Source of the DNA: a virus
Lineage: Duplodnaviria; Caudoviricetes
IMG/VR virus record: IMGVR_UViG_3300031801_001562
Length of the DNA stretch: 64,000 nucleotides
Direction: 5' to 3' (one strand)
In this document: positions 1,564 through 59,953 of the stretch, one piece after another
How the letters are laid out: the number at the start of each line of letters is the position of its first letter
Position numbering within the stretch: the stretch's first letter is position 1
The notes under the pieces: generated by a model
Seen by the model: only the letters and a program-made list of their open reading frames with translations
Database searches by the model: none
Told to the model about the DNA's origin: nothing
Translations under genes and position numbers: made by a program

Positions 1564-3525
1564 TTAAATCAAATCTACAACCTCACATCCACCGTCACTT
1601 CCACAAGCTTGTGTTTGTGCTCCGGCGGTATGATCTTCTTTTTCATAATCACTTAATTTATCCCAATTTACATTTTTGGGCATTTTTAATAATAATTCTT
1701 TATACTGTTCTTCATCACAATCTTGGTAAGGAGCTTGTTTATACGTATATTCACTAAATGGTAAAAATGAAATACCACTAATAGAATCAAAATTTTCCCA
1801 AACCCATGAACCCACAACCATCCATTCGTGTTCCTTAACCGATACTGTAATAGATGGTTTATGCTCACACCAATGATCTTGATATATTTTCCACAATTCT
1901 ACTTGATCTATAGCTGTCATATCCGTTCTGCATATAGCCCCTTTCGGACTTTTTTGTGGAAAAGAAAATACTGAAGTATGAGTTGGTTTTGTTATATCCG
2001 GTTCATTTGGAAATTTGGCATCTTTCATAAACTTACATAAAGGATCTTTATTATCCGCTCTTACTGTGCGGATGTAATAAGGATTATGTCGAGCATGAAT
2101 ACCAGAAGAACTATCAACCAGCTGAGATACCGTTCCAGAAGGTTTGATACAAGTAATTGCCGCTGATCTTGGGATACCAAGTTTAGTAGACCATTCTTTA
2201 TTTGTTTCAATAGCGACATTTCGAAGCTCCTCTAAAAGTTTGCCGGTTTTTTCTTTTCCTTTTTTTCCATTTGTTAATTCGTTATCCATTATTCCGGTAA
2301 GAGATACTCCCAAAAGTCGTTCTTCTTCACAATTTCTGGCCCATTCTTTGGTGATGTATTTGAAGTTAATGAGCGTTGATTGGAATGTTCCAAGTATGGT
2401 AGCATTGCGAACTTTATCTTTGAGAGATTGGCGAGTGTCCCGTCCACGGATAACGACTTCAGATAAGTTGCAAAATTCTCGTGACCGTAAAATGATCTCG
2501 CTGCACGGATTTGTGCCAAAGTCTTCTCTGGGATCTCGTCTTCGAATAAATCCTCCATGTTCATCTTGTTCCCTTTCGTTTAGTTTTTGAACTTGTCGAT
2601 TAGCTGAATCTCCATTATATATTCCTCGTTCTCCGGATTTTGAATCATAAAGAGATAGCCACTCTCTCATAAAAGTACCAACGTCTGGTTTTTCTTTATA
2701 ATTAACAGAATTATTTGCTAAAGCACGTTGTACATTAAGTTTATACCATTCTCCATGTTTTGCAAATCGCATTTCACGGTCATTAAGATCACTGAGACTG
2801 ATAAGAGCACTTCTTCGAACACCTCCTACAACAACAACTTCTGCAGTCTTACAAATGATGTCATGACATTCAATAGGTTTAAGTTTTCTCCCAGCTGAAT
2901 TTTTAAATATATCTGTAACAAAGTTAAATAAATCTACTAGCGGTTCTGGGCCTGAAGCTCTACCTCCAAATGTTTTTAAAGGCATGCCTGCAGCCCTTAC
3001 TTTACTCATATCCCATTTAGGAGAAAGTCCTTGATATAATAATGAAACTAATTCTTTAAAAGCCTTACACCAACCCAATTTACTATCTGCAACTACTATG
3101 GTAGTATCTGTGAGAAAAAATTCTTCCGCGATAACTGGCATTTGTTTTGTATATTTTTCTTCAACGGAAAAACCAACACCTGTTCCATTCATTAAAACAT
3201 ACATAATTTCATCAAACGTTCTTTGATTATCACATTTTAAATACGAACAATTATATCCAGCAACATTTTCTTTTTTAAGAGGCTCTCCGGCTGTCATTAA
3301 ACATCTCATAGACGGCATAACTTCTAAATTTAGAACTGCTTCTTCTAATTCTTTTCTTTCTACATCAGAAAAATCATAATCGCATTTTTCTTTTAAATCT
3401 TCTTTAAAAAAATCAAAATATCTACCGATTGTTTCGGACCATTTTTCTCTTCTTTCTTCATCATACCTCCATCTTGCATATCTTGAAAGATGTATAAATG
3501 ATTGATATTCTGTAGGTAGGTTCAT
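1564..3525 (-). CDS. nrdJ: Class II (adenosylcobalamin-dependent) ribonucleotide reductase
   Basis: MNLPTEYQSFIHLSRYARW start, GGVRRSA, TNPCSEI active site, TCIKPSGTVSQL, C-terminal CxxxxC tail; no nrdB in the window. Confidence 0.92.
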   Translation of the reverse strand: MNLPTEYQSFIHLSRYARWRYDEERREKWSETIGRYFDFFKEDLKEKCDYDFSDVERKELEEAVLNLEVMPSMRCLMTAGEPLKKENVAGYNCSYLKCDNQRTFDEIMYVLMNGTGVGFSVEEKYTKQMPVIAEEFFLTDTTIVVADSKLGWCKAFKELVSLLYQGLSPKWDMSKVRAAGMPLKTFGGRASGPEPLVDLFNFVTDIFKNSAGRKLKPIECHDIICKTAEVVVVGGVRRSALISLSDLNDREMRFAKHGEWYKLNVQRALANNSVNYKEKPDVGTFMREWLSLYDSKSGERGIYNGDSANRQVQKLNEREQDEHGGFIRRRDPREDFGTNPCSEIILRSREFCNLSEVVIRGRDTRQSLKDKVRNATILGTFQSTLINFKYITKEWARNCEEERLLGVSLTGIMDNELTNGKKGKEKTGKLLEELRNVAIETNKEWSTKLGIPRSAAITCIKPSGTVSQLVDSSSGIHARHNPYYIRTVRADNKDPLCKFMKDAKFPNEPDITKPTHTSVFSFPQKSPKGAICRTDMTAIDQVELWKIYQDHWCEHKPSITVSVKEHEWMVVGSWVWENFDSISGISFLPFSEYTYKQAPYQDCDEEQYKELLLKMPKNVNWDKLSDYEKEDHTAGAQTQACGSDGGCEVVDLI

Positions 3526-25912: not shown

Positions 25913-26356
25913 TTATTTAGTTACAATTGGGATCTGTCTAGATTTCTTATCCTCAGGAATAACTCTTTCTAAGGTGATAATTAACATTCCGCTAGTCATT
26001 GTCGCGCCGTTAACTATCATATCATCAGATAAAGTCCAAGACCTCTTAAATGAGCGCCTGGCTATACCTTGATGAAGATAATCTTCTTCAGATTTTTCTG
26101 TATCACTGCTGACAGTTAATACCCTATCCTCAACATGTACCTGAATATCTTTTTCGCTGAGTCCTGCAACTGCTAACTCTATTATATAATGATCTCCATC
26201 TTTTTTCAAGTTATAAGGTGGATAACCAGAAGATTGGTTTTGTTGATTACTTTCAAAAAGTCTATCAAACATTGTATCAAACCCAACGGCTGATCCTAAT
26301 GCTTGTTCGAATTGTTTGTGGGTGGGGAATACAGAAAGTGCGTTAGTCGTTAACAT
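25913..26356 (-). CDS. Small heat-shock protein Hsp20 (IbpA-like)
   Basis: YPPYNL, IELAVAG, YLHQGIARRSFKRSW; AGGAGG RBS. Confidence 0.93.
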   Translation of the reverse strand: MLTTNALSVFPTHKQFEQALGSAVGFDTMFDRLFESNQQNQSSGYPPYNLKKDGDHYIIELAVAGLSEKDIQVHVEDRVLTVSSDTEKSEEDYLHQGIARRSFKRSWTLSDDMIVNGATMTSGMLIITLERVIPEDKKSRQIPIVTK

Positions 26357-46248: not shown

Positions 46249-46830
46249 CTAATATGTTCCTTTTATTTCATCACACAATCCTAGTTTTTTTGCTTCCCTT
46301 GCGGAAAGCCATACATCGGATGCCGGAAGAAGATATTCCCGAATTTCCTTTTCCGATAATCCGGTACATTTTTTATAGTGAGCAATCATTCTTTCTGTGG
46401 TTAGGTCGTATTCTTTTATCTGGGCAAATAATTCGTGCTCTTTTCCAAAACTACCCCAAGAATATTGATGAGAAAGTATAGACGTATTTGGTGTAAGGAT
46501 TCGTCTTCCTTTAGTTCCTGAAATAAACATCACCAATCCGCAAGAAGCAATCATTCCCATACCGATAGTACGAATAGGGATTTTAGAACCTTTCATTACA
46601 TCTACTAAAGCAAAACATGCATTTAAATCTCCGCCGGGAGAACATATCCCCAACGTTAACTCCTTGTGCTTTTTCTCCTTAGTAAAATTCGCGGAAACTA
46701 TCCAATTAATTATTGGACTCATTGTTTCCATAGTCACTTCGCCCATGAATACATGAACCCCTCTCTGGAATAAATCCGCAGCGGGGTCTGTTGTACTCTG
46801 TGGTTTTTCACCTTTTTCTTCGTCTGTCAT
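46249..46830 (-). CDS. clpP: ClpP-like protease subunit
   Basis: ICSPGGD, GMIASCG (catalytic Ser), ILSHQY (His), DVWLSAREAKKLGLCD. Confidence 0.85.
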   Translation of the reverse strand: MTDEEKGEKPQSTTDPAADLFQRGVHVFMGEVTMETMSPIINWIVSANFTKEKKHKELTLGICSPGGDLNACFALVDVMKGSKIPIRTIGMGMIASCGLVMFISGTKGRRILTPNTSILSHQYSWGSFGKEHELFAQIKEYDLTTERMIAHYKKCTGLSEKEIREYLLPASDVWLSAREAKKLGLCDEIKGTY

Positions 46831-53846: not shown

Positions 53847-54170
53847 TTAAATTTCTTCTACTGTTACCATTAAAGGAAATTGATTTTCTTTTGCATGCAT
53901 CATTGATTCATATACTTTTGTTTCTGCTAACTCAAATGAATAAATGCCTGCTACACCTTTTCCTTTTTGATGAACATTCAACATTATAGCTTCTGCTGCT
54001 GCTTCCGAATGATTAAAAATTATTTGTAGTAGATATACTACAAATTCCATTGGGGTAAAATCATCGTTGTGGAAAACTACTTGATATTTATTTGGAGCTT
54101 TCAGTTTTTGTTTAGACTTCTTCTTTTCCGCTACCGTCGTTTCCTGATCGTCCAATTCCTCCGAATCCAT
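53847..54170 (-). CDS. clpS: Clp protease adaptor ClpS
   Basis: YQVVFHNDDFTPMEFVV...MLNVHQKGKGVAGIYSFELAETKV. Confidence 0.93.
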   Translation of the reverse strand: MDSEELDDQETTVAEKKKSKQKLKAPNKYQVVFHNDDFTPMEFVVYLLQIIFNHSEAAAEAIMLNVHQKGKGVAGIYSFELAETKVYESMMHAKENQFPLMVTVEEI

Positions 54171-54817: not shown

Positions 54818-56146
54818 ATTAAGTATTTCTACTAACAAAGGATCTAAGTAATCTTTATAACTTTGATCCCTTACTTCATCTAAAATAATTATTTCCGTTT
54901 TCATTTTTTTAACATCACTGGTATTATTTTTTAATGCATTTTGTAATTGACCAACTAAATTATGAATATTAAATCTATACCACTTCTTATATTCTTTCCC
55001 TCTTATAGTTGCGTGTACAGTATCAGATTGTGCAACGGTAGCTATTCCGGATTCAGTAATATCTATAATCCGATCAAGAGCAATCTCTAATAATTCCTTT
55101 GGCATATTCCTAATTGATGTTCCTCTATTATCTGGATACATTTCTGAAAAATGAATATACCAATCAGGAATTTTATAGTATGCACATTTATTACATATCC
55201 ATTCTATATAATCAGCAACATTTAAAATATTTAAAGATGACAATACCATATTAAAATATTGATGTTTAATATTAGTACATGTACTAAGATAATGATCTAA
55301 GCTTTCATTTAATTTTTTCCAATCAGAATTATGCCGGATATAATTATATGTTCCATGGGTGCCGTCTATGCTGAACGTATGTCCTTGCTCTTTGAAATTA
55401 TTTAAAATTTTTGATAATTCAGGAGTGAACTGTGTAGCATTAGTATGAAACTTTAAAATTGTATTTTTACTTGCTTCCGTTTCGACATATCGTTCTAATA
55501 CTTTAACTACTCTTCTATCATAAAATGGTTCTCCTCCAGAAGCTTTTAACATTGTTATCTTGTGTGTATTATTCAATAGCCAATCAATAACACTGTTATT
55601 ATCTTTATCATAGATAACACCTTTTATATCAGGCATTGCATTATTACTGACTCTCATGAAGGAATTATGTAAGCCCTTTGCCTTCATCTTCTCAACGTCT
55701 TTACCTAATTGATGAGATGAACCCACATTACACATTCTACAAGCTAAATTGCACAGGTTAGAAAGGGTTATATCAAACTCAAACAAACCTTCCTGATTGG
55801 GATGCGGGGGATCAGAAGAATCAGAACATTGTCTAAATGATTCTAAGCCATCTTCCTCCATCCTCCAACAAACGGTACATGCTTCATTCTTTATACCATT
55901 AGATAAATCATTTCTGAGTTTTTTAAAAGATTCATGATTAAATATTTCTTCTGGACTTAAACCTTTTAAAGAGCCATGGCCTAGGCTATGATGTTTAACG
56001 GAACCATCTTCTTCTGAAGTAACAGGGTTCATCATCATACAACAAGGAGTTACATTAATAGGATCTCTTCCATTTTTAGACCATTTCTTAAAAGTCATGG
56101 CATGAAATGGATAATGACAATATGTTGGATGTGTTTTAGGATTCAT
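54797..56146 (-). CDS. Radical SAM protein with SPASM/twitch-like Cys segments
   Basis: CNLACRMC (CxxxCxxC), SGGEPF, N-terminal YC...PCC...CxxCW. Confidence 0.88.
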   Translation of the reverse strand: MNPKTHPTYCHYPFHAMTFKKWSKNGRDPINVTPCCMMMNPVTSEEDGSVKHHSLGHGSLKGLSPEEIFNHESFKKLRNDLSNGIKNEACTVCWRMEEDGLESFRQCSDSSDPPHPNQEGLFEFDITLSNLCNLACRMCNVGSSHQLGKDVEKMKAKGLHNSFMRVSNNAMPDIKGVIYDKDNNSVIDWLLNNTHKITMLKASGGEPFYDRRVVKVLERYVETEASKNTILKFHTNATQFTPELSKILNNFKEQGHTFSIDGTHGTYNYIRHNSDWKKLNESLDHYLSTCTNIKHQYFNMVLSSLNILNVADYIEWICNKCAYYKIPDWYIHFSEMYPDNRGTSIRNMPKELLEIALDRIIDITESGIATVAQSDTVHATIRGKEYKKWYRFNIHNLVGQLQNALKNNTSDVKKMKTEIIILDEVRDQSYKDYLDPLLVEILNGEAVHW

Positions 56147-57078
56147 TCAAATAAAATAGAAATTGATTCATTATGATTAATTCTTCTAATCGCTTCTGAA
56201 AACATAGGTGCTATTGTTAATACTTTTACACTATTAGTTTCAAGATTTGGTATAGTATCTGTTATTACCAAATTAGATAAAGCTTCAGACTCTTGCATTT
56301 TACGTCCACCATTCTTACTCAACACTCCGTGAGTAATATAAGCCATAACTTCAATAGCCCCTTCTCTCTTTAATGCCTCGGCAGCTTTAATAAGTGTATT
56401 ACCTGTATCTACAATATCATCTACTATTATACATTTTTTCTTATTCACATCTCCAATAACATTCATCGAAGCAACTTGATTAGCTTGCTCTCTACGTTTA
56501 TCGATGATCGCTATATCTAATTGTAATTTCTTAGCCACCTTTCTTGCTCTGGCAACGCCACCCGCATCAGGAGAAACTATAACACCATTCTTTGCTATTA
56601 TCATTCGCTTTGGATGAGTTTCTAAATCATTAACAAACAATGGCATAGCCCCTAGATCATCTACTGGAATATCAAAGAACCCTTGTATCTGTCCGGCATG
56701 TAAATCCATTGTTACTATTCTATTAGCTCCTGCCATCTCTAACATGCTTGCTACTAACCTAGCCGTTATAGGTGTTCTTGAAACAGGCTTTCTATCTTGT
56801 CTTGCATAACCGAAATAAGGAATCACTGCAGTAATTCTACCAGCCGATGCTCTCTTACAAGCATCTATTATAATTAACAATTCCATTAAATAATCATTAG
56901 CAGGATTACAAGTACTTTGAATAATGAATACATCCTCACCACGAACATTCTCTTTAATCATACACGAGAGTTCATTATCTGCAAATTTAATAAGTTCTAC
57001 TTCACACAAGTGCTGTCCACAATGATGTGCAATAGACTCGGCCAAATTTTTATTTGAATTTCCAGCAATTAATTTCAT
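56143..57078 (-). CDS. prs: Ribose-phosphate pyrophosphokinase
   Basis: FADNE, PYFGYARQDRK, DLHAGQIQGFF, VSPDAGG, IVDDIVDTGNT. Confidence 0.96.
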   Translation of the reverse strand: MKLIAGNSNKNLAESIAHHCGQHLCEVELIKFADNELSCMIKENVRGEDVFIIQSTCNPANDYLMELLIIIDACKRASAGRITAVIPYFGYARQDRKPVSRTPITARLVASMLEMAGANRIVTMDLHAGQIQGFFDIPVDDLGAMPLFVNDLETHPKRMIIAKNGVIVSPDAGGVARARKVAKKLQLDIAIIDKRREQANQVASMNVIGDVNKKKCIIVDDIVDTGNTLIKAAEALKREGAIEVMAYITHGVLSKNGGRKMQESEALSNLVITDTIPNLETNSVKVLTIAPMFSEAIRRINHNESISILFE

Positions 57079-58448: not shown

Positions 58449-58467
58449 TTAATATATTTAGGTGGTG

Positions 58468-58542
58468 TGGCTGCCTAGGCTGGGCTCGAACCAGCGACAT
58501 TCTGATTAACAGTCAGATGTTCTACCACTGAACTACTAGGCA
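58468..58542 (-). tRNA. tRNA-Asn(GTT), canonical
   Basis: Acceptor TGCCTAG/CTAGGCA+G+CCA, anticodon arm TCTGA-CTGTTAA-TCAGA, short variable loop. Confidence 0.95.
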
Positions 58543-58550
58543 TTAAAACA

Positions 58551-58759
58551 TGTGGGGTAGAGCCTAGACTATCCTGAAGGACAACTCTCGCAAGGCACTC
58601 GGGCCTCGTTTATCAAAAGTTATCCACTCCCTCACCCTGTGGCACGTACCGGCGGTCTTATTGGAGAGGCTTCTTAACTTCATCTAGGTAGAGTCACTTA
58701 GTCGCACTCAGTACTAGGGTTCGTCTCCCGCTCCTGGCTTTAGTGTCGTTTACCCCACA
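58551..58759 (-). ncRNA. Unassigned ~209-nt structured RNA candidate
   Basis: Perfect terminal 9-bp stem TGTGGGGTA/TACCCCACA, GC-rich relative to flanks, internal helices, no ORF, 8 nt from tRNA-Asn; strand inferred from context. Confidence 0.6.
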
Positions 58760-58761
58760 AT

Positions 58762-59010
58762 TTAAATCATCTTATACCATTCAGTAGGTATCTTATCTAA
58801 CATTATACAGCTTTTATAAGGGTGCGGCCGTTTCTTCATGAAGCTACGGGCGATCATATTATTATTATATATCCGTCCTTCAAATCGGCCATCGTTAAAT
58901 CCAACTATCAATCCACAATTCCATCTGCTAACAGTTAATGGCTCCATCGCTTTCACAGGAACTTCAGTAACTCCACACGCCGACAGCGCGCGCCTTATAA
59001 GTTTACCCAT
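58762..59010 (-). CDS. Hypothetical protein
   Basis: 82-aa ORF. Confidence 0.45.
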   Translation of the reverse strand: MGKLIRRALSACGVTEVPVKAMEPLTVSRWNCGLIVGFNDGRFEGRIYNNNMIARSFMKKRPHPYKSCIMLDKIPTEWYKMI

Positions 59011-59055
59011 ACTCTCTTTTCATTTAGCCGTAGGCTGATTATCTATTAGAGGTTT

Positions 59056-59072
59056 AGGGCGCGAAGCGCCCT
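59056..59072. other. GC hairpin AGGGCGC-GAA-GCGCCCT
   Basis: Perfect 7-bp stem just downstream of the HTH gene; no U tract on the minus strand, so its role is unclear. Confidence 0.4.
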
Positions 59073-59080
59073 TCGGCACG

Positions 59081-59878
59081 TCACTTCTTCTCCAGACTAT
59101 CGCCAAAGGCTGTTTCCGGTAAAGAACGTTCTAGTTCCGTTAGTTGTTCATCTGATGCAGCTAAGTGTAGGACTTCCCCATATGCTTTCCTCTGATCTCT
59201 CTCACTCTCTAATTCTGCAATGAAATCATTTACATTCACTGTTGATCCTTTCTCATCTGGCCGGCTCTTCGCCGCCTTCTTCGACGCAAGTGTAGTTCTT
59301 TTTCTCCACGACTTCTTTGCTTGGTCCTTCCAGCTCTGGCCATCTATGTTTCCATCCGCTTGTAGTTTCTGTATTTTTCCACCGGCTGCTAAATAGTCCT
59401 CGACTGCGTTACTGATTTCTAAACTAGACATATCCCGTACATCAATCTCTGGCTCTTTCTTTGCAGTTACTCTCAGCTTGTTCTTATCAGCTCTCACTGT
59501 TCCTGAGAGTTTCTTTATTGCACTCATCCTGGCCCGTACATTAATCAGTGATTTAATCTTTTTCTTCTTTAGTAGATCTGATCCGGTTACTCCGCGTTTG
59601 ATCTTACCACTGATTGCTGCATTAGAGTATCCTGTAACATCTGCAATTTCTGCTACGGTCATTCTAGTATTCCCATGCAAGTCTACAGTGAATACTCTAG
59701 GATTTTTTCCCGAACGTTTTGCACCCTCTGAATTCCGCTGTAAATAAATTGTGTCTGCATCGTGATTAAACTTATGCATTAGATTACTCATCCTACAATA
59801 CGAAAGTCCAAAGAGCTCAGCTAGCTCTTTCATCGTGTATAGGGATTCGTGGAAACTGTATGTTTTCGCTTTAGCCAT
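59081..59878 (-). CDS. Double helix-turn-helix protein with SutA-like motif (candidate transcription regulator)
   Basis: TMKELAELFGLSYCRMSNLM and MTVAEIADVTGYSNAAISGKIKRG HTHs; VEDYLAAGGKIQKL. Confidence 0.55.
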   Translation of the reverse strand: MAKAKTYSFHESLYTMKELAELFGLSYCRMSNLMHKFNHDADTIYLQRNSEGAKRSGKNPRVFTVDLHGNTRMTVAEIADVTGYSNAAISGKIKRGVTGSDLLKKKKIKSLINVRARMSAIKKLSGTVRADKNKLRVTAKKEPEIDVRDMSSLEISNAVEDYLAAGGKIQKLQADGNIDGQSWKDQAKKSWRKRTTLASKKAAKSRPDEKGSTVNVNDFIAELESERDQRKAYGEVLHLAASDEQLTELERSLPETAFGDSLEKK

Positions 59879-59924: not shown

Positions 59925-59953
59925 ATTATAATGTATTTTGGGCAACATGTCAA
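59925..59953 (-). promoter_or_regulatory. sigma70-type early promoter
   Basis: TTGACA-17 nt-TATAAT. Confidence 0.85.

What the first reader, a model, noticed from the sequence alone, without database searches (positions are those of the whole stretch)
58551..58759. Unassigned ~209-nt structured RNA wedged against tRNA-Asn
Seen: a 9-bp perfect closing stem and GC content clearly above the flanks. Nested helices on the minus strand include GCCTC/GAGGC, TCCA/TGGA, CTAG..GAGT/ACTC..CTAG and TCC-TTCA-GGA. There is no ORF, and the element ends 8 nt before the tRNA-Asn 5' end. I could not find tmRNA, RNase P (GAGGAAAGUCC), SRP, hammerhead or group I/II signatures. Known: T4 tRNA clusters carry stable non-tRNA species of unclear function. 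Inference: a stable phage ncRNA released by tRNA processing.
Basis: partly seen in the sequence, partly recalled or inferred. Interest (0 to 1): 0.65.

Follow-up and report, generated by a model that had tools for sequence, protein, structure and literature searches.

The report
New folded RNA of ocean phages
The 209-base stretch is a real gene for a folded non-coding RNA that belongs to an uncatalogued family of more than 110 variants in uncultured T4-like ocean phages; its two long arms touch at their tips, it shows up as its own RNA in seawater samples, and its job is still unknown.

Summary
Real, and not in Rfam 15. Window 58551-58759 (minus strand) is one of 102 distinct 'type I' RNAs (152-220 nt). 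A divergent 'type II' paralogue has 11 members, and four contigs carry both types. All were found in marine viral or metagenome contigs; the flanks examined are T4-like. None was found in GTDB genomes or cultured phages.

Covariation fixes the fold (93.7% of cells paired, 37 of 56 pairs compensatory). A closing stem leads to a three-way junction with two long arms whose tip loops pair through 3 bp (ACG:CGU, GCG:CGC, GUA:UAC/UGC, GCA:UGC). Arm lengths are the same in both types.

RNA-library contigs from three studies cover just this element. Only 31 of 103 copies abut a tRNA, and 18 have their own sigma-70 promoter. It is therefore an independent RNA gene, and tRNA processing is only one route of release. 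RNase P, tmRNA and T4 rnaC/D membership failed; group I pairing is unsupported.

Best guess: an early, stable, trans-acting RNA that binds a host factor as a decoy. Sequence look-ups found no earlier scan report of this family on other DNA.

The parts
58551..58759 (-). Whole RNA gene (type I, long form, 209 nt)
   Evidence: CM R1 101.8 bits, E 3e-25; RNA-library contigs 58554/56/57-58747/48 with 0 mismatches in 3 studies
58751..58759 (-). P1 closing stem, 5' strand; pairs with 58551-58559
   Evidence: 8 of 8 counted pairs show compensatory changes
58551..58559 (-). P1 closing stem, 3' strand
58748..58751 (-). J1/2 (AAAY) of the three-way junction; the three A are invariant in both types
58743..58747 (-). 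P2 5' strand (arm A base); pairs with 58691-58697
   Evidence: A-U to U-A in 14 sequences, GA/UC to GG/CC in 1; 97.5% paired
58691..58697 (-). P2 3' strand
58704..58738 (-). P3 plus P4, the upper part of arm A (P3: 58734-58738 with 58704-58711, 3-nt bulge; P4 hairpin 58716-58730)
   Evidence: P3 100% paired with G-C/G-U variation; P4 3 of 4 pairs compensatory; RNAalifold finds P4 unaided
58720..58726 (-). 7-nt loop 1; central triplet ACG at 58722-58724 pairs with loop 2
   Evidence: 98.7% paired in type I, 100% in type II; triplet pairs ACG:CGU, GCG:CGC, GUA:UAC, GUA:UGC, GCA:UGC
58683..58688 (-). P5 5' strand (arm B base); pairs with 58563-58568
   Evidence: 99.8% paired, 4 of 6 pairs compensatory; wholly different but paired sequence in type II
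58563..58568 (-). P5 3' strand
58674..58682 (-). Conserved strand of a large asymmetric internal loop (WGAAR-UU-AA), shared by both types; proposed hinge or docking element
   Evidence: motif in 101 of 102 type I and 11 of 11 type II; role inferred
58663..58669 (-). P6 5' strand; pairs with 58627-58630 and 58573-58575 on either side of the insert
   Evidence: compensatory changes in most pairs
58634..58656 (-). P7 hairpin; loop 2 triplet CGU at 58644-58646
58576..58626 (-). Optional P8/P9 insert, present in 31 of 102 type I RNAs
58560..58562 (-). J5/1 (CUC) of the three-way junction; both C invariant
58543..58550 (-). 8-nt U-rich spacer between the RNA and tRNA-Asn; likely processing site
   Evidence: sequence; family spacers to a downstream tRNA 5-21 nt; processing inferred
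58468..58542 (-). tRNA-Asn(GUU), probably co-transcribed
   Evidence: RNA contig 58454-58623 bridges both (X4)
59925..59953 (-). Perfect sigma-70-type promoter (12/12), probable start of the unit ORF265 - RNA - tRNA-Asn
   Evidence: read-through to the RNA is inferred
59081..59878 (-). 265-aa ORF upstream in the same unit; not a fixed partner of the RNA
   Evidence: only weak PHROG hits; other genes flank nearly all homologues

Best explanation
An autonomous, trans-acting non-coding RNA gene of uncultured marine T4-like phages. SHOWN: the secondary structure, the loop-loop pairing, two paralogous types, a varied gene context, and RNA contigs limited to the element. INFERRED: (1) It is transcribed by host sigma-70 polymerase, from its own promoter or inside a polycistron. 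(2) It is cut out at the U-rich spacers by host nucleases, by RNase P at the 5' end of a following tRNA where there is one, and the P1 stem protects both ends. (3) It folds into a compact monomer: arm A and the P6-P7 part of arm B lie side by side and are clamped by the 3-bp kiss, which brings the invariant WGAAR-UU-AA loop next to the invariant three-way junction. (4) That conserved tertiary core is the functional surface. Most likely it binds and titrates a host RNA-binding factor (defence nuclease, translation or RNA-turnover protein) as a decoy during infection. The target is not identified.
For: Fold. The type I model finds type II at E 1e-6 to 4e-5. Arm lengths are the same in both types although the sequences differ: 22-25 nt (mostly 23) from the P2 base to triplet 1 and mostly 41-43 nt from the P5 base to triplet 2, which points to a fixed 3D geometry. 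Invariant bases are unpaired and cluster at the junction and the asymmetric loop. Independence from neighbours: 33 upstream and 28 downstream flank clusters, 107 of 113 co-oriented by a crude ORF test; own promoter in 18 of 110; tRNA neighbour in 31 of 103. Discrete RNA. Sigma-70 promoters and placement among tRNA and auxiliary metabolic genes fit a host-takeover role better than a virion role (inference).
Against: No binding partner or phenotype is shown; the decoy role rests on context and elimination. Contigs cannot show ends, strand or level, the runs were chosen because they hold this stretch, and no DNA control run could be laid. Covariation cannot tell an intramolecular from an intermolecular kiss. 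Within type I the kiss is nearly invariant (one compensatory case); most support comes from comparing the two types. The host is unknown, and no cellular RNA that it could mimic was found.
Confidence: 0.42

Rival explanations
1. Self-assembling structural RNA: loop 1 of one molecule pairs with loop 2 of the next, giving dimers, rings or cages, like phi29 pRNA or ROOL/GOLLD.
For: The topology (junction with two arms whose loops are complementary) recalls pRNA (own knowledge). In ROOL a kiss called tertiary from covariation proved to be intermolecular, and ROOL and GOLLD lie near tRNA islands (PMC12286853). The type I and II kiss codes are orthogonal, and both types occur on one contig.
Against: Only 3 bp and no second interface seen. 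The matched lengths of arm A and P6-P7 fit a monomer equally well. No link to packaging genes among the neighbours, and sigma-70 rather than late promoters. No Rfam pRNA, ROOL or GOLLD match.
Confidence: 0.2
2. A new ribozyme class: the invariant junction is a catalytic core, held by the kiss as in natural hammerheads, that cleaves itself or helps cut polycistronic tRNA precursors.
For: A three-way junction with invariant unpaired bases plus a distal loop-loop contact is hammerhead-like in plan (own knowledge). RNA contigs of three studies start at element position 12-13, inside J1/2.
Against: Loss of about 10 nt at the 5' end is expected from library chemistry, and contigs cannot show ends. 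No Rfam ribozyme match. At 150-220 nt it is large for a nucleolytic ribozyme. Copies whose predicted transcription start is at P1 (L400-L402) have nothing upstream to cut.
Confidence: 0.15
3. Ligand-binding aptamer or riboswitch acting in cis on the next gene.
For: The architecture resembles purine and lysine aptamers (multi-helix junction plus loop-loop kiss; own knowledge). Many copies lie 10-45 nt before an ORF.
Against: Downstream neighbours are unrelated (28 flank clusters) and are tRNAs in 29 cases. Tandem type I and II copies occur. No expression platform overlapping P1 was seen.
Confidence: 0.08
4. Selfish or neutral mobile cassette that moves between intergenic sites.
For: It is found at many different loci in related phages.
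Against: It is nearly always co-oriented with its flanks, has no ORF and no fixed mobility gene beside it, and selection acts on RNA pairs, G-U included.
Confidence: 0.08
5. Degenerate RNase P RNA or group I intron core.
For: Short look-alike strings: a J18/2-like run after P5 5', a P4-like AGCC/GGCU, and a P7-like ACGAC/GUCU (recalled from memory).
Against: The P4-like pairs break (56/79, 74/79, 66/79) at the positions where P5 changes compensatorily and stays 79/79. The P7-like pairing is compatible in type I but has no compensatory change, competes with P2 and P5, and is absent in type II. No Rfam hit.
Confidence: 0.03

Closest known systems
Phage T4 RNAC and RNAD (rnaC, rnaD; species 1 and 2)
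   Same: Small stable RNAs of unknown role, encoded in the tRNA region of a T4-like phage (PMC3014915; PMC9697503).
   Different: No sequence or model match. T4 rnaC ends in a T-arm-like hairpin, whereas only 1 of 79 family members has a UUCRA near the 3' end. The T4 RNAs are late; many of these copies have sigma-70 promoters.
GOLLD and ROOL RNAs
   Same: Orphan, elaborately folded phage RNAs often near tRNA islands, using kissing loops (PMC12286853).
   Different: Those are about 600 to over 800 nt with many pseudoknots and form cages; this family is 152-220 nt with one kiss and has no Rfam match.
phi29 prohead RNA (pRNA)
   Same: Similar size and plan: terminal helix, junction, two loops complementary over a few bases (own knowledge).
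   Different: pRNA belongs to podovirus packaging motors. This RNA is in T4-like phages, was not seen beside packaging genes, has much longer arms and has no Rfam match.
Purine and lysine riboswitch aptamers; natural hammerhead ribozymes
   Same: Multi-helix junction with conserved unpaired bases, braced by a distal loop-loop contact (own knowledge).
   Different: No Rfam match, none of their core motifs recognised, no consistent regulated gene, and it appears as a free RNA.

Membership tests
Any Rfam 15 family | Covariance-model match at gathering score or significant E-value | tested here: not met
   Window long form; short form and type II loci. Best was YrlA E 4.5, driven by the tRNA.
RNase P RNA | P4 helix between CR-I and CR-V with bulged U | tested here: not met
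   Candidate pairs break where P5 covaries; motif absent in type II; no bulged U
RNase P RNA | Pre-tRNA 5' cleavage | not testable with these tools
   Needs an in-vitro assay
Group I intron | P3/P7 pseudoknot with G-binding site | tested here: inconclusive
   P7-like pairs are 78-79/79 compatible in type I, but without compensation, exclusive with the covarying P2 and P5, and absent in 11 of 11 type II
Group I intron | Interrupts a host gene at a conserved U/G splice site | tested here: not met
   Copies are intergenic or overlap only the last few codons of the upstream ORF
tmRNA / tRNA-like RNA (incl. T4 rnaC, YrlA) | T-arm and acceptor stem with 3' CCA; tag ORF for tmRNA | tested here: not met
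   ARAGORN finds no tmRNA; T-loop-like string in 1 of 79
T4 rnaC/rnaD | Sequence or structure homology | tested here: not met
   cmsearch with filters off on T4 70.5-73.5 kb gives nothing better than E 1
phi29-type pRNA | Complementary left- and right-hand loops | tested here: met
   3-bp loop-loop covariation
phi29-type pRNA | Intermolecular ring formation and binding to prohead or packaging ATPase | not testable with these tools
   Needs biophysics
phi29-type pRNA | Match to the Rfam pRNA model; podovirus packaging context | tested here: not met
Riboswitch | Consistently 5' of functionally related protein genes, with an expression platform | tested here: not met
   28 downstream flank clusters; tRNA downstream in 29 cases
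Riboswitch | Ligand-dependent folding | not testable with these tools
   Needs in-line probing
Self-cleaving ribozyme | Site-specific self-cleavage | not testable with these tools
   No match to the Rfam classes; activity needs an assay
Orphan phage tRNA-island ncRNAs (loose kind: rnaC/D, GOLLD, ROOL) | Covarying non-coding fold, phage-encoded, often beside tRNAs | tested here: met
Orphan phage tRNA-island ncRNAs (loose kind: rnaC/D, GOLLD, ROOL) | Accumulates as a discrete stable RNA | tested here: inconclusive
   Contigs from three RNA studies stop at the element's ends, but contigs cannot prove ends or strand

The most novel reading that the evidence does not exclude
Probability: 0.25. Interest if true: 0.85.

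Novelty: new variant of a known kind. Interest (0 to 1): 0.66.

Why it matters
It adds a compact (150-220 nt) RNA fold with a well-resolved secondary structure and a tertiary contact to the short list of phage-encoded orphan RNAs. Two diverged paralogues show directly which bases and distances matter, so the core is mapped before any experiment. The RNA is small enough for in-vitro transcription, cleavage assays, probing, pull-down and cryo-EM. That makes the old question of what stable non-tRNA RNAs in T4-like tRNA islands do testable on a new scaffold. It also accounts for an RNA that recurs unannotated in marine metatranscriptomes.

Tried and rejected
Single-sequence folding: not significant.

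BLASTN against 50,697 cultured phage records: only tRNA or chance hits.

Exact-motif scan of GTDB genomes: 18 hits, none passing the HMM or CM. CM search of 5 and then 151 cellular genomes (155 distinct): none. These are samples scored on first-look candidates only, so 'not found', not 'absent'.

RNase P-like and group I-like pairings. T4 rnaC/D, and the rIII-30.9 gap of RB69 and JS98.

Host inference: the nearest named ClpS ('Nitrospinaceae', P0029) lies among T4-like replication genes, so it is a phage contig in a MAG and no evidence of host. The best isolate DNA polymerase is only 49.7% identical (cyanophages).

Mimicry ideas: the 7-nt loop 1 with a central triplet resembles an anticodon loop but has G where U33 should be. 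The asymmetric loop reads NNU-AA like t6A-bearing anticodons but lacks the loop context. The loop-1 GGA resembles a CsrA site but is missing in type II and in some type I. None was kept.

Literature searches found no description. Fremin et al. 2023 candidates are 29-151 nt and their supplement is not held, so overlap with a fragment cannot be excluded. RNA runs with a small word share that I did not lay were not used as evidence.

Full report
OBSERVATION. On the minus strand 58759-58551 has a 9-bp closing stem, GC 0.52 against 0.35-0.38 in the flanks, no ORF, and ends 8 nt before tRNA-Asn. Rfam 15 gives nothing at gathering score or at E<=10. The window is a T4-like phage; its DNA polymerase is at best 49.7% identical to that of cultured cyanophages. 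The host is unknown.

FAMILY. A relative of the upstream ORF led to a syntenic 160-nt homologue. Eleven distinct full-length type II sequences (191-217 nt) were also found. A covariance model built only from short type I RNAs finds the window at E 3e-25 and type II at E 1e-6 to 4e-5. Both types occur on the same contig in L123, L139, L205 and L213. Nothing was found in cultured phages, in an exact-motif scan of GTDB, or in 155 cellular genomes searched with the model.

STRUCTURE. On 79 representatives the structure below is 93.7% paired, with compensatory changes in 37 of 56 pairs. No shuffle of 500 reaches this, and slid controls give 27-45%. RNAalifold finds P1, P4, P5 and P6a unaided and the same topology in type II (98.7% paired). 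P1 closes a three-way junction. Arm A is P2, an internal loop, P3 with a bulge, and P4 capped by a 7-nt loop. Arm B is P5, a large asymmetric loop, P6 (from which an optional P8/P9 insert branches), an internal loop and P7. The covariation-supported fold costs only 2.5 kcal/mol over the MFE before tertiary contacts.

THE KISS AND THE CORE. The central triplet of loop 1 pairs with a triplet in loop 2: ACG:CGU in 100 sequences, GCG:CGC in 1, GUA:UAC in 4, GUA:UGC in 6 and GCA:UGC in 1, with one mismatch case. All three positions change together between the types. Distances are kept although the arm sequences differ: mostly 23 nt from the P2 base to triplet 1 and mostly 41-43 nt from the P5 base to triplet 2, in both types. 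What both types share in sequence is mostly unpaired: AAAY before P2, the bases between P2 and P5, WGAAR-UU after P5, the bases before P1 3', and the tip of P7. I infer a compact fold in which the kiss clamps arm A against P6-P7 and brings the asymmetric loop to the junction. An intermolecular kiss fits the same data.

EXPRESSION. Twelve RNA runs hold part of the stretch. Contigs from three studies (vent and seawater metatranscriptomes) cover 58556-58748, 58557-58747 and 58554-58748 with no mismatch and stop there. A fourth contig (58454-58623) bridges the 3' part, the spacer and tRNA-Asn. Other family members are present in the same runs. This is a hint of a discrete stable RNA cut from a longer precursor. 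It is not proof: contigs do not show ends, strand or level, and no DNA run could be laid as a control.

CONTEXT. Neighbours vary widely (33 upstream and 28 downstream flank clusters), but orientation follows the flanking genes in 107 of 113 cases by a crude test; the other six are near ties or lie beside same-strand tRNAs. A tRNA lies within 30 nt in 31 of 103 copies (downstream Tyr 17, Asp 7, Asn 4, Gly 1). Fifteen type I and three type II copies have a TTGACA/TATAAT promoter directly upstream; in L400-L402 the predicted start falls at P1. In the window a perfect sigma-70 promoter at 59953-59925 heads the ORF-RNA-tRNA run. The element therefore behaves as an independent RNA gene that is shuffled among tRNA and auxiliary-gene islands, and not as a leader of one gene.

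MECHANISM. Shown: fold, kiss, paralogues, independence from neighbours. Inferred: sigma-70 transcription, release at U-rich spacers (RNase P at a following tRNA, other nucleases elsewhere), protection by P1, and action in trans through the conserved core. The last was tested. The P4-like pairing breaks where P5 covaries. The P7-like pairing has no compensatory support and is absent from type II.

COMPARISON. It works like the orphan RNAs of phage tRNA islands. T4 RNAC and RNAD still have no known role (PMC3014915; PMC9697503), and GOLLD and ROOL lie near tRNA islands and assemble through kissing loops (PMC12286853). It is homologous to none of them by the tests run. In plan it resembles phi29 pRNA, purine and lysine aptamers and natural hammerheads (own knowledge) but fails their model and context tests. 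No paper describing it was found. A fragment could be among the 29-151 nt candidates of PMC10690425, whose supplement is not held.

EARLIER SCAN NOTES. A word search returned notes on 155-157 nt RNAs in marine phages and on a ~150-nt RNA in the rIII-30.9 gap of enteric T4-like phages. Sequence look-ups with the window, two short forms and a type II copy returned only this window's own stretch. My model does not match the rIII-30.9 region of RB69 or JS98. These notes therefore appear to concern other families; for the marine ones I could not compare sequences directly.

VERDICT. A real, uncatalogued RNA family with a well-supported fold and tertiary contact; function open. New variant of a known kind; interest 0.66.

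Noticed in passing
window 58930-59090 (-): GC-rich stretch after the 265-aa ORF, 86% identical over about 125 nt to L116 3819-3942, with two small hairpins (one strong, about 59055-59073). Folding z -1.4. Possibly a terminator or stabiliser, or a second RNA element.
   Followed up: partly
L205 24-236 (-); L139 4934-5127; L213 1371-1582; L334, L336, L362, L375, L400-L402, L406: Type II paralogue of the RNA; 35-40 nt downstream of a type I copy in L139 and L213.
   Followed up: yes
L402 about 3046-3085: The 3' strand of P1 plus trailer (a 10-nt unit) is repeated three times after the type II RNA; slippage or assembly artefact.
   Followed up: no
L390-L395: ClpS P0029, named Nitrospinaceae by NCBI, lies beside T4-like recombinase, helicase and DNA polymerase genes: a phage contig binned into a MAG.
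   Followed up: partly
e.g. L133, L136, L154, L205, L242, L248, just downstream of the RNA: Phage tRNA-Tyr genes with a deviant T-loop are missed by default ARAGORN and score below or near the Rfam gathering cut-off (23-28 bits).
   Followed up: partly
window 53847-54170, 56143-57078, 46249-46830, 25913-26356: Auxiliary genes: ClpS and ribose-phosphate pyrophosphokinase (PHROG hits); a ClpP-like and an Hsp20-like ORF recognised by eye only.
   Followed up: no
window 59925-59953 (-): Perfect sigma-70 consensus promoter, preceded by a terminator-like hairpin at 60003-59988; conserved in L116.
   Followed up: partly
L412 5103-5454 (phage JS98, rIII-30.9 gap): 352-nt unannotated gap, apparently the RNA element of earlier scan notes; not matched by model R1.
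   Followed up: partly
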